Source: Rhynchopus sp. YZ270_cl-10
Lineage: Eukaryota
Reading direction: 5' to 3'
Length of the DNA: 64,000 bases
Assembly (NCBI GenBank): GCA_964035575.1
Contig: OZ037843.1
Location: 496,001-560,000, forward strand
The notes under the pieces were generated by a model, which searched no databases, was not told the origin of the DNA, and saw nothing but the letters and a program-made list of their open reading frames with translations. Of this stretch, positions 1,318 to 60,548 are shown in pieces. Each line of letters begins with the position of its first letter. Position 1 is the first letter of the stretch. The position numbers and the translations under genes were made by a program.

Positions 1318-2476
1318 TTTTCTCAACTGAGGAAAAGTAGCTCTGAGCAAACCCCGTGGAAGAAGTGTGAGGATAAATTCACTTTTCCTCACACATAGCC
1401 ACTTTTCCTCACGCAATTTGGAAAAGTAGCAATAATTTTTGGCTGGGGTTTGTGTAGAAAAAAGCCTATGTGTGAGGCTTTTTTTGGTGTGAGGAAAAGT
1501 AGAGGGGGGGTCGAAAAAAAAATTGGGTGGGAGAGTGGGTCATTTTGATATCTCTGCTTCACATTTTGTCACCGTGACCAACATGACCATTTTTTGGTCC
1601 ATTTTTTCGGCCAAAAATTTGGTACCACAGGGCTATACCATATACTGGGATTATCAATCTTTTGAAAATACACGTCCTGGGCTGGACGTTAAATTGCATC
1701 CGGGGGCCCTTTTGTGGCACTCCTCCTGAAACTCTATGAAGGTCTGACCTGAGGGTAAAAGGTGCTGGGTATGCTACCCTGGGTGCTGAAGGCAGGCACA
1801 CAACATGTGTGGAGGGACCTGCAGAGCCCTAGCCAGTGAAGCCAAGGAGGCCCCCCTAGGAAACTAGGGAACGGATTGGAAGAGACCTCGCCGGTAGCCG
1901 GGAACCCTCCCTGGGCTAGTACAATGATGAAACTTCAATCTTAAGTCCACACCCATGTGGCGGCCGCTTTGGCATGCGTCTGTAAGGACAGCCTTGACTG
2001 ATACTTTCTGTATTAGCACACGATTGCCTCCCTGAAGGCTACGTAGCTACCTGAGTACAAAAAAAAAAAAAAAAAACGGCCTGGTATTCGGGCCAAAATG
2101 TCCCATGGGGCCCATAGTAGCCTTACTGGGTGTCGAGCAGAGCCAATCTTAATAGTGAAATTCGATTTTCTGTGAAAAATATTCCCACCAAAAAATCGTC
2201 TTTTTTTTTCTGCATATTCTTCCCACACTTCTTCCACGGGGTTCGCTTAGAGCTACTTTTCCTTCAGTTGAGAAAACTATTATATTCTGGTGAAATATTC
2301 ACTTTCCCTCCACTCGTGCCCTTTCAGAAACTCGTGGCTGACTTTATCCCACTCGCTTCGCTCGTGAGATAAAGTCTATTACCCCACTCGCTTCGCTCGT
2401 GGGGTAAAATGCCACTCGTTTCTGAAAGGTACACTCGTGTGAGGAAAAGTGAATATTTCCTCAGACGAATAAATAG
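1318..2476 (-). mobile_element. Asymmetric hairpin-ended non-autonomous element (family H1, copy 1), interrupted by a SINE
   Basis: The left-end ~55 bp (TCTCAACTGAGGAAAAGTAGCTC...GAAGTGTG) is inverted at ~2222-2276, followed by a ~200-bp branched terminal foldback (2277-2476). A near-identical uninterrupted copy is at 43296-44049. Confidence 0.85.
1672..2077 (+). mobile_element. Poly(A)-tailed SINE-like retroposon
   Basis: Absent from the 43296-44049 copy (empty site GAAAATAC|GGCCTGG). Ends in an A18 tail with an imperfect TSD AAAATAC/AAAAAAC. Relatives at ~552-630 (+) and ~8640-8879 (-). Confidence 0.85.
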
Positions 2477-2927
2477 CTATTTTTTTTTTTGTAAATTGCT
2501 CTGTATTTACAGTGCAAGGAGGGCATAATATCCCCTCCTTGATAAAAACGTGTGTAATGAGTGTGTGGTGTGGTGTGGTTGAAAGCAATATTTTCTTTGT
2601 CGGTAATTCCGTCCGAAAGACGGAATATTTTCCAACAAAAAAAGGGAAAAAGAAAAAGAAAAAAAAAGGACGGGAGGAGAACTCAAAAACTATGAAGACA
2701 AGCCTTATGAAAGGCTGCTCACAGTTGAGTCTGTGTGTGTGTTGGTGAAAAAAGAAGAAGAAAAAAAAAAAAGGAATGGGGATAAAAATGGGAAGTTGAT
2801 AGGGGTGCAGTACAAGACAATACAGGATAATCATACAATTTTAAAAAAAAAGAAAAAGTCAGTGTTTCCTACAGGTCGAAAAAAAAAAACAAAAAGCTTT
2901 TTTGGGAGAAACCCCCCAAAGTGCGGG

Positions 2928-8561: not shown

Positions 8562-8639
8562 ATTTGTAGACAGGCTATTATATACGATTTTTTTCCTTAC
8601 CAAAAGTGCAAAAAAAGTGAGGTTGCTATTCCTGAGGGG

Positions 8640-8879
8640 GCTGCAGGCACGGAGGGGCTTTTTTGGAAGGAGTGGACTTAAGTTTGAAGTATCATCGTTG
8701 TCCAGGGAGGGTTCCCGGCTACCGGCTAGTTTCCTAGGGGGCCTCATGGCTTCACTGGCTAGGGCTCCAGCAGGTCCCACACATGCACTGTGCCTGACTT
8801 TCCCAGCACCTTTCACCCCTTCAGGAGGAGCGCCACAAAGGGCACCCGGATGCAATTTTTCACGTCCATATGAGGACGT
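8640..8879 (-). mobile_element. Partial copy of the SINE at 1672-2077
   Basis: The reverse complement shares ACGTCC..GGACGT, AATTGCATCCGGG, GCCCTAGCCAGTGAAGCCA and GCCGGTAGCCGGGAACCCTCCCTGG. Confidence 0.75.
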
Positions 8880-11872: not shown

Positions 11873-12660
11873 TTATTCTATTTGTCTAGTAAAAACACTT
11901 TATACGTGCAATCCCTCTATAAAACGAATAAATTAAAGTGGACTTTATTTTACAGCTCGCACGAGGGTTTTCTATGGAGCTGTAAAATAAAGTTTTACTC
12001 CGTAAAATAAAGTTTTACACGCTGGAGACCAGGGTTTCCCCTACTTTTTTCACCAGCGCCCCACGAAAAACCGAGTAAAATAAAGTGTGCTGGAAAATAG
12101 AGGAGCTGTACGAAGATTATGGGATCTGTGTACCTGTGTACCTGTGTACCTGTGTACCTGTGTACCTGTGTACCTGTGTACCTGTGTACCTGTGTACCTG
12201 TGTACCTGTGTACCTGTGTACCTGTGTACCTGTGTACCTGTGTACCTGTGTACCTGTGTACCTGTGTACCTGTGTACCTGTGTACCTGTGTACCTGTGTA
12301 CCTGTGTACCTATACCTGGGAAAATGGGTACTCCCACTTTATTGTTCATTGTCATGCATGAGAAACAGTGCCCTTATGTCACCCCTGTTTTTTGTAGTAG
12401 TACACCCACACCCTCTCCACTCTTTGGTCAACATCATTTTATTCGTTTTAAAGAAGGATTGCGTATATCGTGTTTTTACTAGACAAATAAAACAACTTAT
12501 CACTGCAAAATAAAGTAGACTTCACTATTTTACTCGATATTTCCAGGTGCACTCGTGTATTTTTTTTTCCCTCGCTTCGCTCGGGAAAAAAATACACACT
12601 CGTGCACCTGGAAATATCGCGTAAAATAAAGTCTACTTTATTTTACAGTAATAAATAGTT
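11873..12660 (-). mobile_element. Asymmetric hairpin-ended element (family H2)
   Basis: The left end (TATTTGTCTAGTAAAAACAC..AAAACGAATAAA) is inverted at ~12436-12490, followed by a terminal foldback 12494-12660 centred on CTCGCTTCGCTCG. T-rich flanks. Confidence 0.8.
12131..12306. repeat. (TACCTGTG)x22 tandem repeat
   Basis: Perfect 8-bp array read directly. Confidence 0.97.
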
Positions 12661-15011
12661 ATTTTTTGTGTGTCGACAATCTCCAGGATCTGTACTCAAA
12701 ATGTTGCCCGAAAAGGCGAATGTGCTTACAGCATATATAGACGGAACCTCATCCTCAACTCTGGAAAGTAGCTTTTATTTGTGTATGCAATGCATGCGTA
12801 TCACCCTCATGAGGGTACAGAGAGGATTGCCATGGAACTGTTATCCAAGAAGAGTTGTTTGTGTTTTTTTTTGTCTTTTTTTTTTTGTGGATTTTTATGT
12901 GGTATAAATTTGCTAACTAGGAGGGAGCCTCAATACGAAATTCGGTTTGGTCACCCTCCTCTCTGGTATTTAGTTTAAAAACATACAAAGGTAAAATAAA
13001 AATTTCAAAGGAAAAAAAAAAAATCATCTGATTTTCCAATAATGACTTCTCAGTAATATTCAATATTATTGAGAAAAGGAAAAAAAAAAATACAAAAATT
13101 GGTGTCCGATATATTTGTCCATCGATCTCGCTGGATTATATATTTTTTTTGTGTTTTTGTTTGTAAAATGTAATGTTGACAAAATCTCCATTTTGCCTAA
13201 TAATGAAAAGGGAAGTTGAAACGTGCTAAAAACGCATCTCGGTCGAGCACAATGCAAAGGGGTGAGACGTGGGTGTTCCGTACCGAGAGTGGAGGCGGTC
13301 CACAGCCGCTCGGCGAATCACACACCCCAGCCTTTTAAACGGCCAAATAATGAAAAGGCGTATAAAAGAGCAAACGCCTCACCGGTCATCTGCGGACGAC
13401 CGGCACAAAAGGTAAAAGAAACCCATCACCACATCATCTCGAGACACTACACATCAATTAACAGTCTGACCACTCGATGTGACTACTGGTGTGAAATTCA
13501 TCATCCCGACTACTCGCTCGGCATGACAACCCCACACCGCCTATATAACTGCTGACAGCAAATCACACGAGTGGTGTCTTCACTTTGTACAGCCCAGTCA
13601 TGGTAGCAGCAATGCAACCATGCCAGAAGTCATTGTAACTAAGGATTTGGCGGTACCGGTAACAAACACTGACCGTAAAAAAAAAGGGCCCAACTCGCTT
13701 AAAACCCATAAAAAGGTCAAACATTTTTAGGTCAGTATATGGTACGCGTGTGGTAGTGGTCATATTGTTAGCTTGGATTGTAACATCCAGTGGTCACATT
13801 GTTAGTGTGTTGTGAGATGATGGAGAGAGAGGGTGGGGAGGAGAGTAGGCACTCAAAGAAAGGAATTCACCTCCAGGGTTAGGAGCTCCTACCTCATAAA
13901 GGATTGTTTCATAATATTCTTTTCTAAACGAAAAGAAGGCAAGAAAAGAAAAAAAAAAAGAACTGTTTCATATACTAACTATTCTACTGAATAGAAGGTA
14001 TAAAAGATTGTTTCATATACATTCTTGACGAAAAAAGAAGGTACAGAGGGTGCTAAAAATATACCCTTGCTTTTTTTAAAAAAAAAGAAAAAAAAGTGAA
14101 GTTGATAGTGCAAACGCCTCTGGGACGCAGGCACTGACACTCCGCGGGTTATCGAACCCCGGGGTGTTGCGCATGGGAGGTTTACAGGGAAGCTAAAAAA
14201 AAAGAGTAGTTGCTAAAAACGCATCTCAGTCGAGCTCAACGTAAAGGGGCGAGACGTGAGTACGTACCGTAAGAGAATGGAGGCGATTCACAACCGCTCG
14301 GCGAATCACGCGACCTCTTTATACCCCAGCCCTGTTAGATTAAAGCATACTTTTAAAAAAAAAGAGCGACTTCTTTTTTAAGGGGATATGAGAAAAAAAG
14401 CGATGATAAAAAATAAAAAAAAAAAAAAAGGCATCTGACAGAGCGTTTAGGGTTGTCCGTCGTGTTGTGGCGAGAGAGAGGTTGAGAAGGGGGGGAAATG
14501 AAGTTTTTTTTTTCTTCTTCTTCTTTTATATAGTTTTCGCTTTAATGTCATTGTAGCGAGAGTACGGGTGGTTTAAAAAATAAAAATAAAAGAGCGGTTG
14601 AGTGGTATTGGGCGTATAGTTTTTGTTATGTGTTTTGTTTCAAGAAGCTTTTTTTAAAAATTTTCTTTCTTGAAAAACCTTTTTGTACTGGAAACAATGG
14701 AAGATATGAATTTCCACTGTGATCACTTTTTTTTTTTGTCGTTTTCTTTTCTTCGAGGGGACTATACGGACTATTTTTTTTTTCTTCGTTTTCTTTGTAT
14801 CGACAAACACTTTATACCTACTGGTATATAAAATCTTAATATCGGCCGAAGCCTTTTTTTTTGCTTTTATGGTGCTCTGGGAGGGGGTTGATATTGACAC
14901 GTCGCTGACAGGTCACTGACACAGGGACCTATAGTCTATTATATATAATAGACACCCTGATATTGAGAGGTCGCTGAGAGGTCGTTGACCGATTTCCGAA
15001 AGCACTAATTT

Positions 15012-18422: not shown

Positions 18423-19182
18423 AATAATATATATTATTATCGTGAATTTATTTTCCAGTATTTCACGCACAGGTGGAAACAGCCCGAGGGGAAAAATGCT
18501 TCCCCGAGGGCTGTTTCCACCTGTAAGTGAAATACTGGTATAAATTCACGAAAATATATTATTTTATCTCCAAATGAGACCATGAATTTCACAACCCGTT
18601 TTCACGTACAAAGAGACGAGGGTGGGGTGGTTCTTTTTATGATGATTTTTGATTCAGTTTTTTGATGTGGAACTCTTAGCGCTGGACAGCGCCTTGAGCC
18701 AGAACTGGTGCAGCGGGTTTGTGGCGCTTACGCGGCTGTACTTCTGATGAAGATGAGGAAGACGATGACGATGAGTCACTTGTGTTCGTGTCGGACTCAC
18801 CCTCCACAGGTGCCCTCGCACGTTTTTGAGGTCTCATTTGGGATTTTTTGATGAAAATTTGGGAAAAAAAACGTGTAAATCCGTGGTTTGTGTGATACAG
18901 AAAATTAACTCAAAAATGCGTTTGAGACCCCCAGAATGGCTCAAAATGCCTCTTTTCTGGCTTTAATTGCAAAATTGGGCCTCCAAAGGCCTCCAAAAAA
19001 ATTTTCGAGAGTTCAGTTCTACGATTTTCTGAGCGTGAATTTATTTTTCTGAGCGTGAATTTATTTTTCTGAGCGTGAATTTATTTTTTGAGCGTGAAAT
19101 ACCGGAAAATAAATTCACGCACCTCCTTCACGATTTTGTGAAGGGGCGTGAAATTCATGGTCTCAAGCGGGGATAAAAATAA
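18423..19182 (+). mobile_element. Asymmetric hairpin-ended element (family H3)
   Basis: Terminal foldback 18423-18565 with CCCGAGGG/CCCGAGGG arms. TTATCTCC..TGAGACCATGAATTTCAC is inverted at 19148-19180. 20-bp tandem repeats at ~19025-19100. Confidence 0.8.
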
Positions 19183-25584: not shown

Positions 25585-26094
25585 CCCTCATATTATAAAT
25601 TATGTTATTGTTACAAATAAATTATTTCGGCGATTTTTATTTTTTTTATAACATTTTTGCATTTTGTTACTTTTTTCATTGTTTGGATTTTATTTTTTTG
25701 TAACATTTTTGTTACGCCGCAGGCGTAACAAAAATGTTACTGGGGGGGCTAATAAAGCATACAGCGCGGACACCCATGGTGTAAAAATATAGCTTTTTAC
25801 ACAGAGTCACTCAACGAACCCTTTTTTGCGGAGCAAAAAGGGGAAAATGGCGCCGCAGGCAAAAAAAAAAATTGAGGTACAGCCTGGATGGTGTGGTCAG
25901 CAACCCAGTTCCCTATGGTACTCCCGTGCTTCAACCATGGGCTTTTTATTTTTTCTTTGTAACATTTGTTACTTTTTGCCCAACTGCAAAAAAACGAATA
26001 AAACATTTTATTAAATTGTTACAAAAAAAATGTTACTTTTGGGTCATTTTTTTATTAATTTATTTTTGAAAAAACATTATTTTTACTATGAGGG
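25585..26094. mobile_element. TA-flanked MITE
   Basis: TA|CCCTCATA...TATGAGGG|TA with internal TGTTAC/GTAACA repeats. Confidence 0.7.
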
Positions 26095-33233: not shown

Positions 33234-34035
33234 CATACTTGGACCGCCCGAAATATATTTCGGGCATTTCGGGCGAATTCGGGCGCTTTTTCCTTAGTGA
33301 AAACCGACTAGGTAGGGTTCTATTCATTTTTGCAAAAAACTTTTTATATTTGGAAAGATTTGATGTCAAATCTGTCAAAATAAGCAAGAATTGAAAACTT
33401 TTGGACACCTGAATGCACTTTGGAGGCCCGTGAGAATCACCATCAAATCATGGGTTTTCCGACTATCATTTGCTTATTCCCACCCAAAACACACTATGAA
33501 CCGGGTTTTCACTATTTTTTCGTATTTCAGGGTGGTTTTTTGTGAATTTTCGGGTCACAGGGTGGTTCTGACCCATTCTGGGGGTGTTTAGGGCCTGTAG
33601 TTGCTCAGGAGATGCCCGAAAACGTGAAAAAACGGCATTTTTACGTTTTTTTACGTTTTTAGTGGTATTTTCGTGTAAATTGTTAGGGAAATCGGTTTTA
33701 TACGTGGCTGCTAACAGAGCTGCACTCATATACGTTGGGTTCTACTAGGACTTTTTGCTCGATTTTTTTTTTCTGTGAACAATTTTTGTGGCAATCTTTC
33801 AAATAAAGCGTAAGATTTTTACACTGGTGGCATGCTTCCCAGCACACATAAGATACTCCAGTGCACTGGTTGTGCGCCCGAATTCGCCCGAATCTGCCCG
33901 AAATCGCCCGAAATACGTATAAATTCCCTTTAAAACGCCCGAAATATATTTCGGGCACATTTCGGGCGCTCGGGACCCGCGCCCGAAAAATTCGCCCGAA
34001 TTCGCCCGAAATATATTTCGAGCGGTCCAAGTATG
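33234..34035. mobile_element. CATACTTGG MITE, copy 2
   Basis: Same TIRs as copy 1; TSD GTAAAA. Confidence 0.92.
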
Positions 34036-40650: not shown

Positions 40651-41951
40651 CAGGGTAGATCCTTAGCGAAAGTGAAAATAAGGATTCGAGATTTTTTATT
40701 TTTTTTCCTTTTTTTTTTTCCTTTTTTCTCTGGCCCATTTTTTTGGTTACCTACTAATTTCCAGGCACAGAGTGGCACCACCACGGTCCGCAATCGATCC
40801 GGAAAGTCAAAATAAGGGGGAAGGATGTACATAGGTTGGTGCTGAGGGTGGAGGTTTCGAAGAAATGCATGTGTGTTAAAGGTCGGGTATGGGTCACCTG
40901 TACGGAGTATGAGATCCAGTAATAAAGACTTCAACCGGACCAAGGCAGAAACACAACACTGTTAGGCCAAAATCCAAAAACCCATAGGGGCCCCAGTATT
41001 GTTGTCGAAAATCCCCACTTAATTTTTGGTGGGATTTTGAACTTTTCCCAAAAACTGCGAAAAAAAATTTCCGCTCGCTGCGCTCGCGGAGGTTCACCCA
41101 TGCTGTCTCGCCTACCCAAACTGCTGGTGCATCGGCACTACCTATTTAATTTTGGAAATTTTCTTGCTAATGCCGGGCACTACCACTTTTTTTCAGAATG
41201 TTTCTAGAAAGTATTACCCTTGTCAGAGGGCGCAGTGTCCGACAAGGGTCACAGCCAGAATGCGATTTAATTGGTCAAACGCCGAAGGAAAAGGAAGCAT
41301 GCGAAAGAAAAAAAGTAGCGTACCGTGCCTGCGGCGCAAGATTGCAACTCACCCTTCCCATGACTAGTTTGGCAGTAAATATCTGCAATTTTGAGCGCAA
41401 TTTTTAGAAATGTTGCGTACCGTGGCTTCGCCATGGGTGCCACGACCGCCGTTTCTTTTTGTAAATATACTGAGGTCACTGCGTGTGCCTGGTGCAAATA
41501 TCAATGCAGTGCCGAACTCCGCAGTAGGATAACCGAGGAATTCTCACATTCCGCCGGAGGCCCTAACGAGCTGGGTTGGGCTCGACCGAGTTTCAGCGAA
41601 AACCCCCAAAACCTATATTATCCCCTGGGGTCTAGTTCTACGACAGCTGAGATGTGTAAAAAAAAACACCTATATTCTGCCTCAGTACGGTACCAACCTG
41701 CTTGTTGGATTTTTTTTTAGACCGTCACTCATTTTTTCCGCTCGCTGCGCTCGCGGAGGTACACCTTACATTTTTTTTTGCTCGCTTCGCTCGCGGACAA
41801 ACCATCAACACCACACGATTTCCCAAAAACCTGAAAGTTAGCGTCAGGCCTGCGCCGAAAAATTTCAAAAACGGGAGAGAAAAAAAAAGGAAAAAAACGA
41901 AAATAAATCTGGGATTTTCAGCGTTTTTAGCGAAAATAAGGATCTACCCTG
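40651..41951. mobile_element. hAT-like non-autonomous element
   Basis: TIR CAGGGTAGATCCTTA; 8-bp TSD ATTTAGGC. Shares an internal segment with 29063-29741. Confidence 0.9.
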
Positions 41952-41979: not shown

Positions 41980-42756
41980 TTACGGCTTGTAAGCGACGAC
42001 AGGTGAGACCAAAAACATCATGGGTTGGGCACCCAGGGCTTGCTGCTGGAGGAAGATCTGCTGCTGCTGTGCTTGATGCGCTCGCATCTGCTGTTGCTGG
42101 TTCATCTGCGACTGCAGTGCCAGCTGCTGGAGGAGCATGTTCTGGTATGCCGCCTCGTCCACGAACTGCATCTGAAACGGCTGCACAGCCTGCGTCGGTG
42201 CGACACCCATGTACTGTGCTGCCAGCACCTTGCGCTGCAGATCAGCCTCGGGCACGACCGCCATCTGCAGGGTGGCCGGGTGTGCAGTGGGGAGAACAGT
42301 GGTTGGCATGACAGCAACCGGAGGCTCACGCATCTGCCCCTGTTTCGTCTGCAAGGGCACCTCCTGCGTCTCGCTTCTGTACGCAGGGATGTACGGCATT
42401 TCCTCAGGGGCTGCGAACGTGCGCGCCTGGGGCGTCGGCAGGGGCGGCACGGCACCGGCACGCTCGGGGTGCGTCTTCCTCCTTTGCTTCTCCATAAAGG
42501 CGTCCTCCTTCACCTTGCTTTTGTAGGCGTGGATGTGCAGCAGCGTGCACGTGGGGTCCGTACAGTTTCCCTTTGGGAATTTGCTGCATTTGTCACACGC
42601 CTCGAGAATAACGTTCCACTTGCCAGAGCAGACACGGCAGCGGAGGTGTGTCTTCTGGCACTTCACCCGCAGGTTATCCCAGTCGTTGTGCGTGCATCTT
42701 GAGCTTGCAGGCGCCAATGGCTCGGGCGCGATGTCCTTGTTTGTTCTGACGCACAT
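41980..42756 (-). CDS. Zinc-ribbon + CCCH-type zinc-finger protein with Q-rich tail (258 aa)
   Basis: GC-rich ORF with CTHNDWDNLRVK..HLRCRVC and C-x7-C-x4-C-x3-H. The ATG at 42756 follows a pyrimidine tract + AG. Paralog at 50148-51032. Confidence 0.85.
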   Translation of the reverse strand: MCVRTNKDIAPEPLAPASSRCTHNDWDNLRVKCQKTHLRCRVCSGKWNVILEACDKCSKFPKGNCTDPTCTLLHIHAYKSKVKEDAFMEKQRRKTHPERAGAVPPLPTPQARTFAAPEEMPYIPAYRSETQEVPLQTKQGQMREPPVAVMPTTVLPTAHPATLQMAVVPEADLQRKVLAAQYMGVAPTQAVQPFQMQFVDEAAYQNMLLQQLALQSQMNQQQQMRAHQAQQQQIFLQQQALGAQPMMFLVSPVVAYKP

Positions 42757-43295
42757 TCTAAAAAATAAACGAGCTGAAGGAGAAGAAGAAGGAGGAAGTA
42801 GGGGTATGTGCAGAAGGGAGGAGAGAGAAGCGAGTAATGAGGAAGGAGCGAGGGGGGACAAGTATCCCTGTTGGGTGGTGAATAATTTTTTTGTAGGAAG
42901 TGGGGGTGGGGGGAGAAGTATTATTTGAGTGATAAAAAAAAAAAAAATACGCGAATGCACAGCGAGCCGGTCAACCCTGCGTAAAAGCCTATGTGTACAA
43001 CGGAAGGTATAGACAGCGTTCGTCCCAGTGGTCTTGATGTATGTCAAATGATGGTCGATCCGTGTGCGCGTAAGCTACCCTAGTTTTGAAAAGATGGAAA
43101 AAAAGCAGGAGTGGAGGGAGAGGGGGGGGAGACGTTATTTTACCCCGTCTTTTTTCTAGGTACATTTTTTTTTTTTTTTTTGCTTTTTTTTTTTCGTTTT
43201 GGTTTATTTTTGATAATCTGGGTTGCGTTTTCCCCCCCTTTTTTTCTTATAATCTCTTGGTACATCATCAAAAGCTAATCTAGTTTTTTTTTTTT

Positions 43296-44049
43296 TTTTC
43301 TCAACTGAGGAAAAGTAGCTCTGAGCAAACCCCGTGGAAGAAGTGTGAGGATAAATTCACTTTTCCTCACACATAGCCACTTTTCCTCACGCAATTTGGA
43401 AAAGTAGCAATAATTTTTGGCTGGGGTTTGTGTAGAAAAAAGCCTATGTGTGAGGCTTTTTTTGGTGTGAGGAAAAGTAGAGGGGGGGGTCGAAAAAAAA
43501 ATTGGGTGGGAGAGTGGGTCATTTTGATATCTCTGCTTCACATTTTGTCACCGTGACCAACATGACCATTTTTTGGTCCATTTTTTCGGCCAAAAATTTG
43601 GTACCACAGGGCTATACCATATTCTGGGATTATCAATCTTTTGAAAATACGGCCTGGTATTCGGGCCAAAATGTCCCATGGGGCCCATAGTAGCCTTACT
43701 GGGTGTCGAGCAGAGCCAATCTTAATAGTGAAATTCGATTTTCTGTGAAAAATATTCCCACCAAAAAATCGTCTTTTTTTTTCTGCATATTCACCCCACA
43801 CTTCTTCCACGGGGTTTGCTTAGAGCTACTTTTCCTTCAGTTGAGAAAACTATTATATTCTGGTGAAATATTCACTTTCCCTCCACTCGTGCCCTTTCAG
43901 AAACTCGTGGCTGACTTTATCCCACTCGCTTCGCTCGTGAGATAAAGTCTATTACCCCACTCGCTTCGCTCGTGGGGTAAAATGCCACTCGTTTCTGAAA
44001 GGTACACTCGTGTGAGGAAAAGTGAATATTTCCTCAGACGAATAAATAG
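43296..44049 (-). mobile_element. Family H1, copy 2 (uninterrupted)
   Basis: Near-identical to 1318-2476 without the SINE; T-rich flanks. Confidence 0.88.
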
Positions 44050-44130
44050 CTATTTTTTGAAAACTTGGAAAAATCACGTGTCGCAACAGAATATATCCAC
44101 GCCACGCCCACCCTCCGCCCAGCTTACTTC

Positions 44131-44192: not shown

Positions 44193-45120
44193 TATAATTG
44201 GAACACAAGGGAGCAACTCCTTGTGCGAAGTAAGTGACTCGGGGGGGGTTTTTTTTCATTTACCGACCCTCCCCCTTGAAATTGTCCCTGGCGGCAAAAT
44301 ACCGGTTTTTAGGGGGGACAATTTCATGGGGAGGGTCGGTATTTATTTTTTTAGCACAAAAAATTTAAAAAAAAAAAGCACTTCAACGTAGGGTGGGTCC
44401 ATCACTTTAAGTCATATGAGAATAGGTTGTGGTCACCTAACTATGGTTGGAGACAAAGGTACACAGTGGCCACGTGACATACAAATGACATTGCTATCAT
44501 TTGCCCTTTGGTACGTAACACCGCCACACGGCAACACGCTTTCATAGCATTGCTTTCTTTTTTTTTTTTGCGTGAAATGCATAAAAACAAACATAAAAAG
44601 TCATACATTTCAAAGTACGATGCAAAATAGAATACTATTGTAGCAATGTTACCCGGAGGGGGTACATGGTTCACTGTGAATTGGGGAGGAGGGGAGTTTG
44701 AAAATGTTTTTTGCATGTTTCGAAAGTGCTTTGTGCTCTGTTTAATTTTGCTTGATAGAGAGGAGGGGGGCAGACCACGACCCTTTGTAAGCACCACAAA
44801 AAATATTCGCCGTTGACTATTTGTGTCTCTTTTTTTTTTTTGTAGATTACCCTGAGGGCAGGCTCACTTTTGTCTGTGTTTAGTGCTCGGAGGGCCCAAA
44901 AATTTTCCGCGCGCGCGCGCAAGAAAAAAACATGGAAAAAAAACATGGAAAAAAAAAATAAGAAAAAACACACACACACACACACACGTTGCACGGTGTG
45001 CATGATTGGTGAAACTTTTAAACGCCGGCATTTGCATTTCCGGAATTCGTCCGGCCAGTGGTGGGGTCAATTTGCCGAAATGGACAAGTTCTCGTTTTTG
45101 GTCAATTTCTGCACAGTACA

Positions 45121-45471
45121 CAGTATACACAGTATACACAGTATACACAGTATACACAGTATACACAGTATACACAGTATACACAGTATACACAGTATAC
45201 ACAGTATACACAGTATACACAGTATACACAGTATACACAGTATACACAGTATACACAGTATACACAGTATACACAGTATACACAGTATACACAGTATACA
45301 CAGTATACACAGTATACACAGTATACACAGTATACACAGTATACACAGTATACACAGTATACACAGTATACACAGTATACACAGTATACACAGTATACAC
45401 AGTATACACAGTATACACAGTATACACAGTATACACAGTATACACAGTATACACAGTATACACAGTATACA
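45121..45471. repeat. (CAGTATACA)x39 tandem repeat
   Basis: Perfect 9-bp array read directly. Confidence 0.97.
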
Positions 45472-45485
45472 CAGGGGATTGGGAG

Positions 45486-48400
45486 TACAGTACAGTACAG
45501 TACAGTACAGTACAGTACAGTACAGTACAGTACAGTACAGTACAGTACAGTACAGTACAGTACAGTACAGTACAGTACAGTACAGTACAGTACAGTACAG
45601 TACAGTACAGTACAGTACAGTACAGTACAGTACAGTACAGTACAGTACAGTACAGTACAGTACAGTACAGTACAGTACAGTACAGTACAGTACAGTACAG
45701 TACAGTACAGTACAGTACAGTACAGTACAGTACAGTACAGTACAGTACAGTACAGTACAGTACAGTACAGTACAGTACAGTACAGTACAGTACAGTACAG
45801 TACAGTACAGTACAGTACAGTACAGTACAGTACAGTACAGTACAGTACAGTACAGTACAGTACAGTACAGTACAGTACAGTACAGTACAGTACAGTACAG
45901 TACAGTACAGTACAGTACAGTACAGTACAGTACAGTACAGTACAGTACAGTACAGTACAGTACAGTACAGTACAGTACAGTACAGTACAGTACAGTACAG
46001 TACAGTACAGTACAGTACAGTACAGTACAGTACAGTACAGTACAGTACAGTACAGTACAGTACAGTACAGTACAGTACAGTACAGTACAGTACAGTACAG
46101 TACAGTACAGTACAGTACAGTACAGTACAGTACAGTACAGTACAGTACAGTACAGTACAGTACAGTACAGTACAGTACAGTACAGTACAGTACAGTACAG
46201 TACAGTACAGTACAGTACAGTACAGTACAGTACAGTACAGTACAGTACAGTACAGTACAGTACAGTACAGTACAGTACAGTACAGTACAGTACAGTACAG
46301 TACAGTACAGTACAGTACAGTACAGTACAGTACAGTACAGTACAGTACAGTACAGTACAGTACAGTACAGTACAGTACAGTACAGTACAGTACAGTACAG
46401 TACAGTACAGTACAGTACAGTACAGTACAGTACAGTACAGTACAGTACAGTACAGTACAGTACAGTACAGTACAGTACAGTACAGTACAGTACAGTACAG
46501 TACAGTACAGTACAGTACAGTACAGTACAGTACAGTACAGTACAGTACAGTACAGTACAGTACAGTACAGTACAGTACAGTACAGTACAGTACAGTACAG
46601 TACAGTACAGTACAGTACAGTACAGTACAGTACAGTACAGTACAGTACAGTACAGTACAGTACAGTACAGTACAGTACAGTACAGTACAGTACAGTACAG
46701 TACAGTACAGTACAGTACAGTACAGTACAGTACAGTACAGTACAGTACAGTACAGTACAGTACAGTACAGTACAGTACAGTACAGTACAGTACAGTACAG
46801 TACAGTACAGTACAGTACAGTACAGTACAGTACAGTACAGTACAGTACAGTACAGTACAGTACAGTACAGTACAGTACAGTACAGTACAGTACAGTACAG
46901 TACAGTACAGTACAGTACAGTACAGTACAGTACAGTACAGTACAGTACAGTACAGTACAGTACAGTACAGTACAGTACAGTACAGTACAGTACAGTACAG
47001 TACAGTACAGTACAGTACAGTACAGTACAGTACAGTACAGTACAGTACAGTACAGTACAGTACAGTACAGTACAGTACAGTACAGTACAGTACAGTACAG
47101 TACAGTACAGTACAGTACAGTACAGTACAGTACAGTACAGTACAGTACAGTACAGTACAGTACAGTACAGTACAGTACAGTACAGTACAGTACAGTACAG
47201 TACAGTACAGTACAGTACAGTACAGTACAGTACAGTACAGTACAGTACAGTACAGTACAGTACAGTACAGTACAGTACAGTACAGTACAGTACAGTACAG
47301 TACAGTACAGTACAGTACAGTACAGTACAGTACAGTACAGTACAGTACAGTACAGTACAGTACAGTACAGTACAGTACAGTACAGTACAGTACAGTACAG
47401 TACAGTACAGTACAGTACAGTACAGTACAGTACAGTACAGTACAGTACAGTACAGTACAGTACAGTACAGTACAGTACAGTACAGTACAGTACAGTACAG
47501 TACAGTACAGTACAGTACAGTACAGTACAGTACAGTACAGTACAGTACAGTACAGTACAGTACAGTACAGTACAGTACAGTACAGTACAGTACAGTACAG
47601 TACAGTACAGTACAGTACAGTACAGTACAGTACAGTACAGTACAGTACAGTACAGTACAGTACAGTACAGTACAGTACAGTACAGTACAGTACAGTACAG
47701 TACAGTACAGTACAGTACAGTACAGTACAGTACAGTACAGTACAGTACAGTACAGTACAGTACAGTACAGTACAGTACAGTACAGTACAGTACAGTACAG
47801 TACAGTACAGTACAGTACAGTACAGTACAGTACAGTACAGTACAGTACAGTACAGTACAGTACAGTACAGTACAGTACAGTACAGTACAGTACAGTACAG
47901 TACAGTACAGTACAGTACAGTACAGTACAGTACAGTACAGTACAGTACAGTACAGTACAGTACAGTACAGTACAGTACAGTACAGTACAGTACAGTACAG
48001 TACAGTACAGTACAGTACAGTACAGTACAGTACAGTACAGTACAGTACAGTACAGTACAGTACAGTACAGTACAGTACAGTACAGTACAGTACAGTACAG
48101 TACAGTACAGTACAGTACAGTACAGTACAGTACAGTACAGTACAGTACAGTACAGTACAGTACAGTACAGTACAGTACAGTACAGTACAGTACAGTACAG
48201 TACAGTACAGTACAGTACAGTACAGTACAGTACAGTACAGTACAGTACAGTACAGTACAGTACAGTACAGTACAGTACAGTACAGTACAGTACAGTACAG
48301 TACAGTACAGTACAGTACAGTACAGTACAGTACAGTACAGTACAGTACAGTACAGTACAGTACAGTACAGTACAGTACAGTACAGTACAGTACAGTACAG

Positions 48401-48530
48401 TACAGTACAGTACAGTACAGTACAGTACAGTACAGTACAGTACAGTACAGTACAGTACAGTACAGTACAGTACAGTACAGTACAGTACAGTACAGTACAG
48501 TACAGTACAGTACAGTACAGTACAGTACAG
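45486..48530. repeat. (TACAG)x609 microsatellite
   Basis: Perfect 5-bp array spanning 3045 bp. Confidence 0.98.
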
Positions 48531-50147
48531 TTCTTCGTAGAACTTCGTTTTGCAATAAGAAAGCCTCACCCTTCTTCCCAGAATTCCTCCCAGAACCAGC
48601 TGGGCACCAATACTGGAAATATCGTAAAAGCATAACTATTTTGGACGATTTTGTGGACGATTTGGCTGCTACTCGGAAAATCCATTTGTTTGCGGGTTTC
48701 CCGGAACCTCACAAAAATAAATCCCATCGATCATTTTTTGAAACATTTCACAATATTTTTGTAGGAACTTGGTGCACAAAATCACCTCAAGCCCCACTAC
48801 TCTCTCCCTCACACCTTTTATTACTACAATGTTTTTTTTTTTTCCCATGTTTTTTTTTTTGGAATTCTCAAAATTTTCCGCGCGCGCGAGCAATAAACAC
48901 AGGCAAAAGTGAGCCTGCCCTGAATGTTTTTTTTTTGAAAACTTGGTTGTATTAGTGTAGCCACCCTAGGCTAGAGTATGCTCCACTATGGATTTTTTTT
49001 TTGTCACCTCACGAAATGAAGGAGGAAATAGAAACAACGCACTTTGAACACACTTTGCGGTTCTAGGGAAGAACCGCGTTGCAGAGCCACGCCTCACCAA
49101 ACAGGTCGAGGTGTGTGCGTTTCACCACAACCTCTCCCATGGGTTTTATCGTGTGATGAGTGTTAAGTTTCTATTTTGTGTCTAACCCCCTTGCTGGGCA
49201 CCTCGGGTGTGTGTTGAATGACTGCACTATGCCGCCTCACTCTCCTCATAGTTTTCGGGTTGACGGGTTTGCGGGATCAACAAAAAAAAAAAAAAAATGT
49301 TCCCAAAACTAAGCACATCAAAAAAAAATAGAGGGAACTGAAAAAAAGGAAAAAAAAAAGAGGGAAAAAAAAAACGTTCAAAACGTGCTTTGTTGAAATA
49401 GGTGAGAATCTCAGAAGCGGTGCAAGAAACCCCCAAGAAGACGGCTTCAGTGAAAAAAAAAGGGGGGTGTGACTGTGTGGTAGTGAGGTAGTGACTACTG
49501 TGCCTGCTGTTGTTTATTCAATTGCAAGGTTTTTTTTTTGTTGTGGGTGTGTGTGTTTTCTTTTCTTTTTTTCTTTTTTTGATAAATTGTTAGAGTAGTG
49601 TAGTTGTCTCGGTTGTGTTGCCACAGTTTGTGCAATCTCCACTTTCTGTTGTTGTTGCTGTTGTTGTTGTCGAACGAACCACCCACCTGAGGTAGGATCG
49701 GTATTCAATTGTCGCCCGAGGGCTATTGACTGAAGAATTTAAGAGATATATCTCCAAGGGTAAAAACACGGGATGCGCTCTGCCTTTTTCTTCTTTTTTT
49801 GTTTTTTTTTTTTTTTTTTTGAAAACTTGGTTGTATTAGTGTAGCCATCCTAGAGCGCGCTCCACTAACTTTTTTTCTTTTTTCTTTTTTTTTTTTTTTT
49901 GATTATTTTTTCTCGAAAAGATCGAAAAAACAAAAGTGCAAAACAATAAATAATAAATACCGCCCGATCCGTGTCAGGTCTGTTACAAAAAAAAACAAAA
50001 AATAAGGCTAAAATACTTGCGAAGTGAACCCACATATCCACTACGGCAATCAACACCAACCACTAGCCTCTACGCACCTCCACACCAAAGCCGCCCCTTT
50101 CTCCTTTGCTGCGCCCAGTGGGCAGGCTGCGGCTCTGCGTCGGGACG

Positions 50148-51032
50148 TCACTTTGTTCGCTCCCGTCGAGGACGCGGTGAAGGAAGACTGCAAGCACGAC
50201 GTCTTGGGGCTGGTGCGGGGTGCGCGCCCACGTTGCAGGCGACAACGCGGGTGTCCCCCTCCTCTGCTTGGTCTGTGTGCGCGGGGCGTTTCTCTTCCTG
50301 CCCCCCCTGCTCGGGCTCAGCACGCATCGCCTGCTGCCACATGCCCTGCTGTGCATGCTGTGGACTGTCGTAGCGATCCCACTCAGACCCATAAGGACTC
50401 CACTGCAGTGCCTGCTGCTGGTGTGCGTCAGGGAAGAAAGGTGGCTGTGCAACCTGCTGAGGGTGGTGTTGGTGCTGGTGTGCGTGTACCGTGTGGTGGT
50501 GCTGATACGGGTGTACCGTGTGGTGGGGCTGGCATGGGTGAACCGTGTGTTGGGTATGTGGCAGAACAGCGAGACCTGGGTGAGGCGGCGGTTGCATCAT
50601 GAAAGGACCTGTCATGCGATTTGGTTGTAGTCGTGGCTGTGGCAGTGGTTGTGTCTGTGGCTTAGGTTGTGACTTAGGTTGTGTCTGTGGCTTTGGTTGT
50701 GGCTGTGCAGAGCGCGTGTTGTCCTGCACTAACCCCTTTAACTTCTGCAACTCGGCTTTCGCCTTCGTCCTTTCCAGAAATTCCTTTTCTTTGTCCTCAC
50801 TTTTGTAAGCATGTATATGCAGGAGCGTGCACGCAGGGTCCTCGCATTTACCCTTTGGGAAAAGGACACACTTTTCGTGCGTTGCTTTTGTCCTCTTCTT
50901 CACATCGCAGACACGGCAGCGTAGATGCGTCTTGCCGTTCTTGACACGCAGGTTGTCCCAGTCGTTGTGGCCGCAGTCTGGGGGCTCAGGTTGATCTTTT
51001 TTCGAAGCAAGTACTTCGGTCTTGGCGCACAT
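50148..51032 (-). CDS. Zinc-ribbon + CCCH-type zinc-finger protein with P/Q/H-rich tail
   Basis: CGHNDWDNLRVKNGKTHLRCRVC...CVLFPKGKCEDPACTLLHIHAYKS. The first ATG at 51032 follows TTTTGCAG. Confidence 0.85.
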   Translation of the reverse strand: MCAKTEVLASKKDQPEPPDCGHNDWDNLRVKNGKTHLRCRVCDVKKRTKATHEKCVLFPKGKCEDPACTLLHIHAYKSEDKEKEFLERTKAKAELQKLKGLVQDNTRSAQPQPKPQTQPKSQPKPQTQPLPQPRLQPNRMTGPFMMQPPPHPGLAVLPHTQHTVHPCQPHHTVHPYQHHHTVHAHQHQHHPQQVAQPPFFPDAHQQQALQWSPYGSEWDRYDSPQHAQQGMWQQAMRAEPEQGGQEEKRPAHTDQAEEGDTRVVACNVGAHPAPAPRRRACSLPSPRPRRERTK

Positions 51033-52426
51033 TTTCCCCTCTTCCTGCAAAATGTGTCAGTGGAGTGGATTGGGGTGGGATATGGGATAGGGTCTGAGTG
51101 CAAAGGCAGGTCCATTATATTTTAAAAAAATGGGGGAAATAGTTGGCTCTCCCTGTTTTGCTCTCGTTTTCTGCTTTTTTTTTCCCCCCGAAAAAGATCG
51201 GGTCTTTTGTTTGTGCGCTCAAAAGCCGGAAAACAAAAAGGTGAAAAATTGTGTTAAACTGAAGTACCGTTGTTGTGGTTAATTTGAGTACTCAAAAAGA
51301 AACAAGCGAGCTTCTGTATTTTTTTCAATCCGTTTTTGTTTGCCCTGCAGCGCTGCCTCCAATCTTTTTAGAATTTGACAACAAGTTGTTTTATCAAAAT
51401 ATTCTGCAGTCCCAACCCGACCTCCTTCCCTACTTGAAAATGGGGCGGGGGAAAATGCATAAACTTGTGATTCATTGATCGCTTCCAGCAACACACACTT
51501 CTGAAGGGTACTTTTTTTTTTTTTTTTTTTTTTGAAAGGTGAACACAAAAATCCCTGAAGTACAGAAAGTGTGTGTGTGGAGCACAAAGGTAAAACAGAC
51601 AGCAAAGGGGAGAGTCAATCATCCGAGTTTGGAGTGCGGAACATTTCTCTTAACATTACATGTTTGGGTAAAAAAAAAAATTGGGGGGGCTTCGTAGCGG
51701 GAGAGGGAGAGGGGTTGCGGAAGTGGATGCCTGGGGGGGAAACCCCTAGGAATAAGAAGCAAAAAAAAAAAAGGGGGTGAAGTTGTCAAGGTGCAGATAA
51801 CACCTCTGGTACCGTGGGGCAGGTTGCAAAAGCAACAAAAATAGAAAACGACTTCAGGATATGACAGTGAAGCATAAATCATAAATGACAAGAAAACACC
51901 TTTCGTTTATCGCACCGCAGTTGTGTTTTTCACTGATGGATGTGAACGATGTGTATGTTAGTGGAAAACCAAATCCGCTAAAAGCGCGCACCATCCGTCG
52001 TTTTTTTCATTTCTATTTGACAATGCTTGATCATTCGATAAAAAGGGTTTATAAGATGATCCTAAGTCTCTCATACATAGTCACCTTGATCACATTCGTT
52101 ACCACACAGTATCAGCTGCGTTAGATAAAAAAGCCCATCCCACGCCAAACGGTTGCTTCCTTTTTGTTTTTTTTAGAAAACTTGGTGTGTATTTGTGACA
52201 CGAGGACGCACTCCATCATTTTTCTTCTTCAAGAGTTCAACTTATTCTTAGGTTTTGTTTCTTTTGGGTGACAAAAGAAAAACATGAGTCAGTATCCATC
52301 TTCCCCCTTTTGGGGGATCCGATCTGCGCTTACCATGCATTCATTTTGTTCCATTGGGTTAGCTATAGAAACAGTTTAATTTCCTCCCCGCTTTGCATCA
52401 CGAACCAAACGCACCCACCTCCCCCC

Positions 52427-57556: not shown

Positions 57557-58711
57557 GTAAAAAAGAAAGAGGAAAAGGAGATTTGACATTCAATACGAGT
57601 CGTTCAACCTTATCCTTCTTTTGCAAATGTACTTTTCTTATCATATAAAGCCACGTTTTTATATTTTTTCAATTGTTTGTAAAAAGTAAAAATGGAAAAG
57701 GGTTTTACTCAATCCTCAAATAGGAGTTGAGTGAGCATGTTGGGGTCTGCGGAATCTGTTGGGGTGGTATAAAATAGTAACTCTGATAGGTAAGTAAGAG
57801 GAAAAAAGGTTTTTTCGTTGATTGCACAATTACCCGTTTGAGGGGTGATTGGCGACTGTATCTGAGGAACTATTTCTCCTTTAAGCTACGCTTGTAGGTA
57901 TAACAAAAAAAAGTTTTCAATTTGAACAAACCCTTTCAGGTCAACACTCACCCTCACCCTCCAACCGGTAGTCCTGGAATATTAGGTGTACTCCAGACTG
58001 TCTGGTAACAGCCTAAGTGATCTTCTGAGGTCAAATGAGCAGAAATGAAAACAAAAAAACACAAATTATCATTTTCATTTTTATTTTCAAAAGAGGAAAA
58101 CAAACCAGAAAGGGTAGTTGAAAACGTGCTAAAAGCGTAGCTCGGTCGAGGGGGGAAAGAAGAAAAGTTTATAAGATGACCCTAAGCCTCTCGTGATTAG
58201 ATTATTCATTGGTTTATTCATCAGTCATTTGTTTTTTTTTTGTGTGCCATTGCTACTCGTGGGTGGCAATTTGTTTTAAGTAAGCCTCTCGTGCCTTAGT
58301 CACCTTATCAAAAATGTCAAGAGACCACACCGACTGACATATCAGCCAATCACGTGAACCTGAAAAGGTTTACCCAAGAGTTGGTCCAGTTGTCCTCAAA
58401 GCCGTCACACCCCGAGGGGGGGGAGGTGTGCTGTCTGTTTTCCCTGTTGTGGCAACAACAGGGAGGTCCCCTCCGTATAGCGGTAAAATGGCACCCAACC
58501 GCCGGGACACGGTCCCGGGTTTACTTTGGATAGAGCAAATTTTTTTTTTGATTATAGACTACTATCACCTAGATAGGCAGCCACAGTTTTTCTTTCACAG
58601 GATCCTTAAAAAGAGAGCAAATAGAAGGGAGTACGCTTTGTACGATACCAAGATCGCGTTAGTCACCTTAACGGGGGGAAGAAATTGAAAATTTTGTTTT
58701 GATAGACTACT

Positions 58712-59619
58712 CATACTTGGACCGCCCGAAATATATTTCGGGCGAATTCGGGCGAATTTTTCGGGCGCGGATCCCGAGCGCCCGAAATGTGCCCAAAATA
58801 TATTTCGGGCGTTTTAAAGGGAATTTATACGCAATTCGGGCGAATTCGGGCGCATTTCGGGCGAATTTGGGCACATTTCGGGCGAATTCGGGCGAATTCG
58901 GGCGCACAACCAGTATCTTATGTGTGCTGGGAAGCATGCCACCAGTGTAAAAATCTAACGCTTTATTTGAAAGATTGGCACAAAATTTGTTCAAAGAAAA
59001 AAAAAATTGAGCAAAAATTCCTAGTAGAACCCAACTTATATGAGTGCAGCTCTGTTAGCAGCCACGTATAAAACCGATTTCCCTAACAATTTACACTAAA
59101 ATACTACTAAAAACGTAAAAAGGCGATTTTTCACGTTTTTGGGCATCTCCTGAGCAACTACAGGCCCTAAACACCCCCAGAATGGGTCAGAACCACCCTG
59201 TGACCCGAAAATTCACAAAAATTCACCCTGAAATACGAAAAAAATAGTGAAAACCCGGTTCATAGTGTGTTTTGGGTGGGAATAAGCAAATGATAGTCAG
59301 AAAACCCGTGATTTGGTGGTGATTCTCACGGGCCTCCAAAGTGCACTCAGGTGTACAAAAGTTTTCGATTATTGCTTATTTTGACAGATTTGACATCAAA
59401 TATTTCCAAATATAAAAAGTTTTTTGCGAAAATGAGTAGAACCCTACCTAGTCGGTTTTCACTAAGGAAAAAGCGCCCGAATTCGCCCGAAATCTGCATT
59501 TCGGGCGACTTCGGGCGTTTTCGGGCGAATTCGGGCGCATAAAATCGCCCGAAATCCGCCCCTAATTCGCCCGAAATCGCCCGAAATGCCCGACATATAT
59601 TTCGGGCGGTCCAAGTATG
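58712..59619. mobile_element. CATACTTGG MITE, copy 3 (inverted)
   Basis: Same TIRs; TSD ACTACT. An empty-site paralog lies at ~58550-58640. Confidence 0.92.
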
Positions 59620-60548
59620 ACTACTATCACTAGATAGGCAGCAACGGGTTTTCTTCGCAGGATCCTTAAAAAGCGAGCAAATAGAAGGGAGTACGCTTTG
59701 CAGTAGGAGGTGTGTACTCTGGATAGAGCACATAGAGCAACCACGTACTGCTTTGACAGCGTTAAAGTCATGAGAGTGAATACCAAGTATTTTTTAAAAA
59801 AATAAATAAAAATACCTCCCGCACACCCTGGAAAGGGGGGGGCGGAACAACAACAATGGAATTGCATTTTTTTTATTTACAGCCAAAGTGATTGACCTTG
59901 CTTCAATCTTGCGCACATCGCGCTCATATGTGCCTGTACATCGTTCGGGTGAAAAGAACGTTCCTCCAAAAATGGTGTCAAAAACAGTAAAATCACCTCA
60001 CAAGCCACTGTATGTGTAAAAGGGGCAAAAATAGCCTAAAAACACGGGGAAAAATACCCAAAAAAAAAAGGGGGTCAAAAAAAAAAAATGTATTTTTGCC
60101 AAAGCCCCCAGCCGCCGGAAAATGGTTTTTGGGCACCGCAAAAGGAGATGGTGGACTGTGCACGACAGGCGAATATGTCAACACCAAAAACGGCATGCCT
60201 CGTTCTTGTGGTCAATAGGAGAACATGGCAACATGGCAACGTGCGTCACGACTGCTTAGGCAGAGCGGAGGCCCCAAACGAACGGTTCACTAGGCATACA
60301 CTTGATGCGAGTCGCATGCGAGAATCATTCTCGTTCACATAGAAGGGTTTTGGTCGTGCGAGAATGAGCAAGAATTGTACGACAATGCGAGAATGCGACT
60401 CGATCGAGTGTATGACCAGGGGGATAAAGAAAACAAAAACAAAACAAAATCGACTTGAAACACAAAAACCCTCTCGTGAACAGTGTACCTTTTGGTACAA
60501 ATGACCGGCGGTACCGGGGGTGGACACCCAACCATGCGGTCCTACATC

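What the first reader, a model, noticed from the sequence alone, without database searches (positions are those of the whole stretch)
43850..44049. Branched terminal DNA hairpin that folds well on only one strand (family H1)
Seen: a ~200-bp foldback with two small arms, each reading CACGAGCGAAGCGAGTG on the minus strand. CACGAGTG faces CACGAGTG in the stem, so the 'mismatches' are tandem G.A pairs on the minus strand but T.C on the plus strand. Known: d(GCGAAGC) mini-hairpins and sheared tandem G.A pairs are very stable in ssDNA. Inference: the end is recognised as folded ssDNA, implying a single-stranded intermediate (tyrosine recombinase/Crypton-like or HUH-type). The same structure is at 2277-2476.
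Basis: partly seen in the sequence, partly recalled or inferred. Interest (0 to 1): 0.7.

Follow-up and report, generated by a model that had tools for sequence, protein, structure and literature searches.

The report
Branched hairpin end of Crypton-like transposon
The branched DNA hairpin is real and forms one end of a small gene-less mobile element present twice in this window, and because elements built the same way carry a tyrosine recombinase gene in another genome, it is likely a Crypton-type jumping gene whose enzyme would act on one folded DNA strand, as bacterial integrons do.

Summary
The hairpin is real. It ends a 753-bp non-coding element (43300-44052; second copy 1322-2479, 99% identical) that sits in T runs with no target duplication beyond T. 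A 52-bp repeat beside the hairpin base is inverted at the far end, so joined ends would extend the stem across the junction with a 3-nt bulge. Mismatches favour one strand (G.A 12, G.T 3 against A.C 1, C.T 0). However, the folding model says both strands fold well (-59.9 and -54.3 kcal/mol), so 'only one strand' is overstated. Two other families in the window (one inverted) and two outside share design and polarity. In eukaryotic DNA inside a bacterial genome bin, such hairpins lie beside 8 of 14 distinct DUF3504 (Crypton) recombinase loci and none of 11 Helitron loci, and one recombinase element has gene-less derivatives. Best reading: a non-autonomous Crypton-type element (0.65), likely recombined as folded single-stranded DNA. 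Its own recombinase was not found, and a Helentron origin remains possible (0.2).

The parts
43300..44052 (.). Element H1, copy A: 753 bp, non-coding, between T16 (43284-43299) and T6 (44053-44058)
   Evidence: laid whole with 0 other letters and 2 gaps on a contig of run X1
43850..44049 (-). Branched terminal hairpin: main stem of 55 Watson-Crick pairs with two tandem G.A sites, and two arms
43914..43948 (-). Arm B: stem, tandem G.A, GC stem, GAA triloop (core 43923-43939)
43954..43978 (-). Arm A: same cap (core 43958-43974)
43797..43849 (.). Inner copy of the repeat pair, directly at the hairpin base; with the first hairpin bases it is complementary to the joined ends
43296..43347 (.). Outer copy of the repeat pair at the far end (inverted; 1 mismatch and 1 gap in 53 columns)
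44050..44052 (.). Terminal CTA; would be the 3-nt bulge (TAG on minus) in the modelled end-to-end junction
   Evidence: a model, not an observed junction
43543..43779 (.). Interior stretch shared with another, deeper repeat family
   Evidence: tables 2, 7, 8
1322..2479 (.). Element H1, copy B, between T5 and T11; hairpin 2277-2476; interrupted by a 406-bp A-tailed insertion at 1671-2076
11875..12661 (-). Family H2: same design and polarity; unbranched hairpin 12483-12669 with the same cap, repeat pair 11876-11932 and near 12430-12495, central (CTGTGTAC)n, T runs at both ends
18424..19174 (+). Family H3: same design, opposite orientation in the window; hairpin 18424-18567 with one tandem G.A site but no GNA triloop, partner repeat 19138-19182, central tandem repeats

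Best explanation
The hairpin is one end of a 753-bp gene-less repeat that is likely a non-autonomous Crypton-type transposon, which would be moved by a tyrosine recombinase encoded elsewhere and would be recombined as one folded DNA strand. Shown: the element, its ends in T runs, the repeat pair, the strand-biased mismatches, and the same design around tyrosine recombinase genes in another genome. Inferred: when the minus (G.A) strand is single-stranded, the far end pairs with the inner repeat and the hairpin end pairs with the hairpin base. The two ends then meet inside one continuous stem with a small bulge, which rebuilds a double-stranded recombination site from one strand. Inferred: the enzyme would exchange that strand with a T-run target that matches the junction, and replication would resolve the product, which leaves no true target duplication. 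Inferred: the tandem G.A pairs, G.T wobbles and GAA triloops would stabilise this strand's fold against re-annealing and single-strand-binding proteins while keeping the double-stranded form an imperfect palindrome. I put about 0.65 on the recombinase class and about 0.45 on the whole single-strand mechanism.
For: (1) Design and polarity are shared by 5 families without shared stems: H1, H2, H3, L086 and the L004 family. H3 lies inverted, so host transcription does not set the strand. (2) In G001, 9 of the 15 DUF3504 loci fetched (of 34 matches; 8 of 14 distinct) have a GNA-capped long hairpin within about 1.5 kb. There are 0 in 11 Helitron loci, including 3 x 20 kb around RepHel frames. Background is 3 in 155 kb, binomial p 6e-7. 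(3) In 3 of those loci the recombinase frame lies between the hairpin and the partner repeat (L377, L380, L382). The proteins match PF12012 (8 of 8 scanned) and PF00589 (7 of 8), and several keep the R, HxxR, H and Y positions (read by eye). (4) The L380 element has 6 shorter relatives of 0.3-1.2 kb that share both ends, with flanks showing only short variable microhomology. (5) End words match: on the G.A strand L377 starts AATAGTTATT and its repeat starts TTTTCT; H1 has AATAGCTATT and TTTTCT. Three G001 hairpins carry H1's exact 13-nt cap (3 of 22 caps examined). (6) A real head-to-tail dimer in L058 extends the stem across its junction with a 2-nt bulge, as the H1 model does with 3 nt. (7) Mismatch bias outside the caps: 16 to 2 events in H1-H3 (p 0.0013); G.A 53 to C.T 3 and G.T 27 to A.C 12 in 18 G001 hairpins. 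(8) Papers: Cryptons have no true duplication, only 4-6 bp of microhomology (PMC3212892, PMC13465315, passages); integrons recombine one folded strand chosen by extrahelical bases (PMC2727003, abstract); d(GCGAAGC) melts at 76.5 C, and mini-hairpins of this class resist nucleases and bind SSB poorly (PMC13037366, passages).
Against: No recombinase gene with H1 ends was found; no genome is held. The link to Cryptons is by design and short end words, not by alignment, and it comes from one genome of another lineage. Nothing shows Cryptons in this host's lineage: the 6 organism-named hits among 120 listed are all animals, and the Diplonema supplements have 0 hits for Crypton, DUF3504 and PF12012. 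6 of 15 DUF3504 loci had no hairpin, one hairpin pointed away from the gene, and no partner repeat beyond the gene was found for L379, L381 and L383. The layout also fits the published Helitron2 description, and T-run targets fit Helentrons. H1's 52-bp repeat is longer than the 11-21 bp partners beside the recombinase genes. Both strands fold well in the model. H3 lacks the triloop, and L004 shows little stem bias (G.A 4, G.T 1, A.C 2, C.T 2). The H1 junction is modelled, not observed.
Confidence: 0.65

Rival explanations
1. A non-autonomous Helentron/Helitron2 (HINE, DINE-1 type). A HUH Rep-helicase would nick one strand, displace it, and stop at the hairpin.
For: Helitron2 is defined by a repeat at the 5' end that forms a hairpin and its partner immediately upstream of the 3' hairpin (PMC3627910, passages); H1 has both. 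HINEs insert in T-rich DNA without duplication and carry central tandem repeats (PMC4067079, passages), as H2 and H3 do. Fusarium Helitron2 ends include CCGAAGG hairpins and an ATTTT terminus (PMC5148889, passages). Helitron-like frames are reported in Diplonema (PMC10161547, passage).
Against: Published repeats are 8-16 bp and hairpins 5-10 bp, against 52 bp and 200 nt here. The 11 oyster HINE palindromes are 13-17 nt with no GNA loop or tandem G.A (PMC7492417 Table S2). No such hairpin lay in 11 Helitron loci of G001, where they cluster at recombinase genes.
Confidence: 0.2
2. A gene-less derivative of a tyrosine-recombinase retroelement (DIRS, TATE or VIPER type). The inner repeat would act as an internal complementary region that circularises single-stranded cDNA.
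For: DIRS elements carry an internal region complementary to both ends (PMC6681497, PMC13465315, passages), as H1 does. TATE-like frames are reported in Diplonema (PMC10161547, passage). As RNA the minus strand folds at -117 and the plus strand at -93.9 kcal/mol.
Against: VIPER has split direct repeats, not this layout (PMC6681497, passage). The G001 elements of 1.6-2.3 kb hold one frame of 200 aa or more, the recombinase, with no room for a reverse transcriptase. The related GCGAAAGC hairpin is far weaker as RNA (39 against 76.5 C; PMC13037366, passages). No Rfam family reached its threshold.
Confidence: 0.08
3. The CTCG/CGAG words are oriented protein-binding sites on double-stranded DNA, or nucleate a cruciform, and the strand bias has nothing to do with a free single-stranded intermediate. 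The parent could be any enzyme class, a DDE transposase included.
For: The same arm motif occurs three times inside a hAT-like element with terminal repeats and an 8-bp duplication (40651-41951) and in many phage and bacterial loci without this layout. The plus strand folds too.
Against: The words sit in register across the stems in unrelated families, and G.T wobbles lean the same way. H1 has no terminal repeat pair and no duplication beyond T.
Confidence: 0.07

Closest known systems
CryptonA / DUF3504 (PF12012) DNA transposons and their gene-less derivatives (Kojima and Jurka 2011, PMC3212892: passages, section 8, supplement 1; Glomhoppers, PMC13465315: passages)
   Same: No true target duplication, short microhomology at the ends, small gene-less derivatives; DUF3504 recombinase genes sit inside elements of H1's design in G001.
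   Different: The papers report no terminal repeats in animal Cryptons, and 'hairpin' occurs 0 times in both. They assume a circular intermediate without a folded strand. H1 has a branched tip, a 52-bp repeat pair and a protist-like host for which I found no Crypton report.
Helitron2 / Helentron / HINE / DINE-1 (PMC3627910, PMC4067079, PMC11417382, PMC5148889: passages)
   Same: Asymmetric repeat pair, inner copy right before the hairpin, T-run target, central tandem repeats in H2 and H3.
   Different: Repeats and hairpin are several times longer here; the hairpin reaches to 3 nt from the end; tandem G.A sites; the design was absent around Helitron genes in G001.
Integron attC sites (PMC2727003, abstract) and the folded attP of phage CTX (recalled, no call)
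   Same: Imperfect palindrome whose unpaired bases make the two strands differ; would give a tyrosine recombinase a site built from one strand.
   Different: Bacterial; attC lies at one cassette end, whereas here the site would form only when the two element ends meet the inner repeat. The mechanism is proven there and only inferred here.
DIRS internal complementary region (PMC6681497, passage)
   Same: An internal stretch complementary to both ends in a tyrosine-recombinase element.
   Different: DIRS are retroelements with reverse transcriptase; here the complement is fused to a long terminal hairpin.

Membership tests
Crypton | Autonomous partner encodes a tyrosine recombinase | tested here: inconclusive
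   Not found for H1 (no genome). Met for elements of the same design in G001.
Crypton | No true target duplication; at most 4-6 bp microhomology | tested here: met
   Only T runs of 5 or more flank both ends in copies A and B and in contig ends. The TATTTTT repeat at copy B is not seen at copy A. No true empty site was seen.
Crypton | No symmetric terminal inverted repeats | tested here: met
   The repeat pair is asymmetric: one copy at the end, the other about 200 nt inside.
Crypton | Circular intermediate | not testable with these tools
   No joint joining the H1 ends in 7 runs laid as contigs; contigs drop rare forms. A tandem dimer exists in the L004 family.
Helitron2 / HINE | Asymmetric repeat pair, inner copy just upstream of a 3' hairpin, 5' hairpin | tested here: met
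Helitron2 / HINE | Repeats 8-16 bp, hairpin 5-10 bp, inner repeat 20-60 bp from the end | tested here: not met
   52 bp, 200 nt, and about 200 nt from the end
Helitron2 / HINE | Insertion in TT or after TTTT without duplication | tested here: met
Helitron2 / HINE | Ends shared with a Rep-helicase element | tested here: inconclusive
   No host genome; in G001 0 such hairpins in 11 Helitron loci
DDE MITE | [quoted passage not shown] | tested here: not met
Replitron | Short direct terminal repeats and a Y1 Rep partner (PMC10288648, passages) | tested here: inconclusive
   No direct repeat other than T runs; partner not testable
attC-like single-strand site (works like) | Strand-specific recombination of the folded strand | not testable with these tools
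   Needs biochemistry; only the structure was modelled

The most novel reading that the evidence does not exclude
Crypton transposons across distant eukaryotes, a euglenozoan-like protist included, are the eukaryotic counterpart of integron cassettes: they move as folded single-stranded DNA, and their ends are written in a DNA-only structural code (tandem sheared G.A pairs, GNA triloops, here on a branched tip) that picks the strand and rebuilds the recombination site from the joined ends. Many repeats now filed as Helentron-like would then be Cryptons.
Probability: 0.4. Interest if true: 0.85.

Novelty: new variant of a known kind. Interest (0 to 1): 0.6.

Why it matters
How Cryptons move rests on a tentative model, and their ends were described as featureless. 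A conserved folded end gives a rule for finding and classifying the many gene-less copies, and a direct bench test of whether a eukaryotic tyrosine recombinase uses single-stranded DNA. It would also be a natural use of sheared G.A pairs and GNA mini-hairpins in a eukaryotic genome. This window adds a protist-like host and a branched tip; earlier unchecked notes of this scan saw the design in animals and a moss, so the idea is not new within the scan.

Tried and rejected
No whole genome is held, so copy number and the parent element could not be searched. Rfam: nothing at threshold; the best were IsrM (E 0.2) and GA-cis (E 0.6). No RNA holder was listed. No clean empty site appeared among the joints of the runs laid. 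Stem-plus-arm pattern in prokaryotic genomes: 0. Viral scans: the single arm gave 59 stretches, mostly unrelated hairpin clusters; two recalled recombinase motifs gave 0; a wider cap gave 13, none with the design; a G001 recombinase query gave 0. Pfam on 7 window frames found no transposase, only an adenylate cyclase and DUF4209; the other frames were not scanned. The protein atlas did not place the host. Conservation of mismatches within H1 is weakly tested: copies are nearly identical, and none of 21 listed substitutions falls on the 16 TC positions, which chance allows about 1 time in 6. I first leaned to Helentron and dropped it to second place after the G001 test. Parvovirus-type ends and an RNA gene were rejected: the element is a non-coding interspersed repeat with no Rfam match. 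Supplements of bioRxiv preprints were closed, figures with end alignments (Fig. 1c of PMC5753468, Fig. 5C of PMC3627910) could not be seen, and Kojima's 2020 review was not held; any of them may already show these ends.

Full report
Observation. The structure is there. 43845-44056 folds as a long stem with two arms, z about -13, and none of 200 shuffles folds as well. Both arms read CACGAGCGAAGCGAGTG on the minus strand, and the hairpin recurs unchanged at 2277-2476. With a strand-neutral alignment of the arms, the non-standard pairs on the minus strand are G.A 12 and G.T 3 against A.C 1 and C.T 0. The claim that only one strand folds well goes too far: the model gives -59.9 against -54.3 kcal/mol. 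It has no term for the GAA triloop and almost none for tandem G.A, so the true gap is probably larger, but that is not measured.

The element. The hairpin ends a 753-bp non-coding repeat, 43300-44052, between T16 and T6. Copy B, 1322-2479, is 99% identical and carries a 406-bp A-tailed insertion. A 52-bp stretch at the far end is inverted right at the hairpin base. No duplication other than T flanks copy A; copy B shows TATTTTT on both sides, but the TA belongs to the element's end in both copies. Contigs of public runs hold the element at other sites, again with T5-T9 at the ends. In three runs the main family lies about 15-40 times deeper than its divergent relatives, which is only a hint of many copies. 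The host is a eukaryote; four long frames on one strand and at least 119 relatives of a receptor-type adenylate cyclase on large contigs suggest a euglenozoan, perhaps a diplonemid. That is my inference; no call names it.

A shared design. Read along the G.A strand, H1 runs: A run, long hairpin, repeat, body, inverted repeat, A run. H2 (11875-12661) has the same order, the same cap and nearly the same last 16 bases, with a different stem. H3 (18424-19174) has it in the opposite orientation, so host transcription does not choose the strand. L086 from a metagenome and a repeat family in AT-rich viral records (L004, L010, L058) follow the same order. Contig ends show further families with other stems and with three arms. 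Leaving out the caps, mismatch events in H1-H3 favour the G.A strand 16 to 2 (p 0.0013; events counted by hand, and one C.T at the outer edge of H3 left out). Against this: H3 has no triloop and L004 has little stem bias.

Joined ends. If the two H1 ends are joined with four A, they pair with the inner repeat and hairpin base as one stem with a 3-nt bulge. This is a model. A real head-to-tail dimer in L058 does the same with a 2-nt bulge. H2 fits with a larger bulge and H3 poorly. I took the idea from earlier notes of this scan and tested it here.

Which enzyme. It lies in G001, a bin labelled as a bacterium that holds 34 DUF3504 and 10 Helitron matches, so I read these contigs as host, probably animal, DNA. 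G001 has 149 caps against 0 for the reversed control. Of 15 DUF3504 loci fetched, 9 (8 of 14 distinct) have a GNA-capped long hairpin within about 1.5 kb; 11 Helitron loci have none; background is 3 in 155 kb, p 6e-7. In L377, L380 and L382 the recombinase frame lies between hairpin and partner repeat; in L379, L381 and L383 no partner was found beyond the gene, and the hairpin of L376 points away. The proteins match PF12012 (8 of 8) and PF00589 (7 of 8). The L380 element has six shorter relatives with both ends and only variable microhomology at the flanks. End words match H1, three hairpins carry its exact cap, and 18 hairpins show G.A 53 to C.T 3 and G.T 27 to A.C 12 outside a 17-nt tip (they were picked by their caps, and longer caps may add a few G.A).

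What is missing. H1's own partner was not found. No call shows a Crypton in the host's lineage. The layout also meets the wording of Helitron2 (PMC3627910, passages) and the T-rich target of HINEs (PMC4067079, passages and Table S2), though not their sizes, and the oyster HINE palindromes lack the code (PMC7492417, supplement 1). The arm motif alone proves little: it sits inside a hAT-like element here and in many phage loci.

Mechanism. Most likely a tyrosine recombinase from a full-length relative acts on the G.A strand when it is single-stranded, for example at a replication fork. The fold brings both ends into one stem, the enzyme would exchange one strand with a T-run target, and replication would finish the job. 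This follows integron attC sites (PMC2727003, abstract) and, from recall, phage CTX. The stability and poor SSB binding of mini-hairpins (PMC13037366, passages) would explain the caps. All steps after the anatomy are inferred.

Novelty. Gene-less Cryptons are known (PMC3212892, section 8). That paper found no terminal repeats in animal Cryptons, and I did not find the folded end described in searches. I recall, without a call, that the human Eulor5/6 repeats, which PMC5753468 (passages) files as Cryptons, are long hairpins, so curators may know the shape. Earlier notes of this scan split between Helentron and Crypton readings for such hairpins; my G001 test favours the Crypton reading. Verdict: a new variant of a known kind, interest 0.6.

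Noticed in passing
window 40651-41951: hAT-like MITE with terminal repeats starting CAGGGTAGATCCTT and an 8-bp duplication ATTTAGGC; carries three internal GCG(A/C)AGC arms with tandem G.A, all on the minus strand.
   Followed up: partly
window 6423-49860: At least 18 copies of a short repeat beginning with a T run and GAAAACTTGG, all on the plus strand (family D6); a second family beginning with a T run and GATAAATTG is also all plus. H1 copy A split the T run of a related repeat at 44053-44068.
   Followed up: partly
window 1671-2076: 406-bp A-tailed insertion in H1 copy B without a duplication; related pieces at 552-629 and 8669-8880.
   Followed up: no
window 7694-8562, 33234-34035, 58711-59621: Three copies of an element of about 870 bp with terminal inverted repeats and TTCGGGCG tandem units.
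   Followed up: no
window 45027-48540: 3.5 kb of 9-bp and then 5-bp tandem repeats inside an element with inverted ends at 44855-44943 and 48837-48921.
   Followed up: no
window 25700-25740: Perfect 19-bp hairpin with a C-GCA-G triloop on the plus strand; no convincing partner repeat found.
   Followed up: partly
window 41980-43074 and 50148-51056 (minus): Two related frames with a cysteine/histidine cluster and low-complexity tails; no Pfam match.
   Followed up: partly
L066, L081, L118 and other loci: Many short repeats that begin GT, end CAG and hold GAGCGAAGCGAG inside genes of eukaryote-like contigs; they look like mobile introns.
   Followed up: no
L075, L155: Bacterial REP-like palindromes built on the same CGAGCGAAGCGAG word.
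   Followed up: no
L003, L016, L043: Phage intergenic clusters of GNA-triloop hairpins with tandem G.A, possibly origins.
   Followed up: no
G001 (via L255): A 16-Mb bin labelled Nitrospirales holds megabase contigs with Crypton and Helitron genes: likely host DNA in a bacterial reference genome.
   Followed up: partly
L004 4747-5845, L010, L058: Gene-less elements of the H1 design in several AT-rich viral records of one taxon, with a second GCGAAGC hairpin inside and a head-to-tail dimer in L058.
   Followed up: partly
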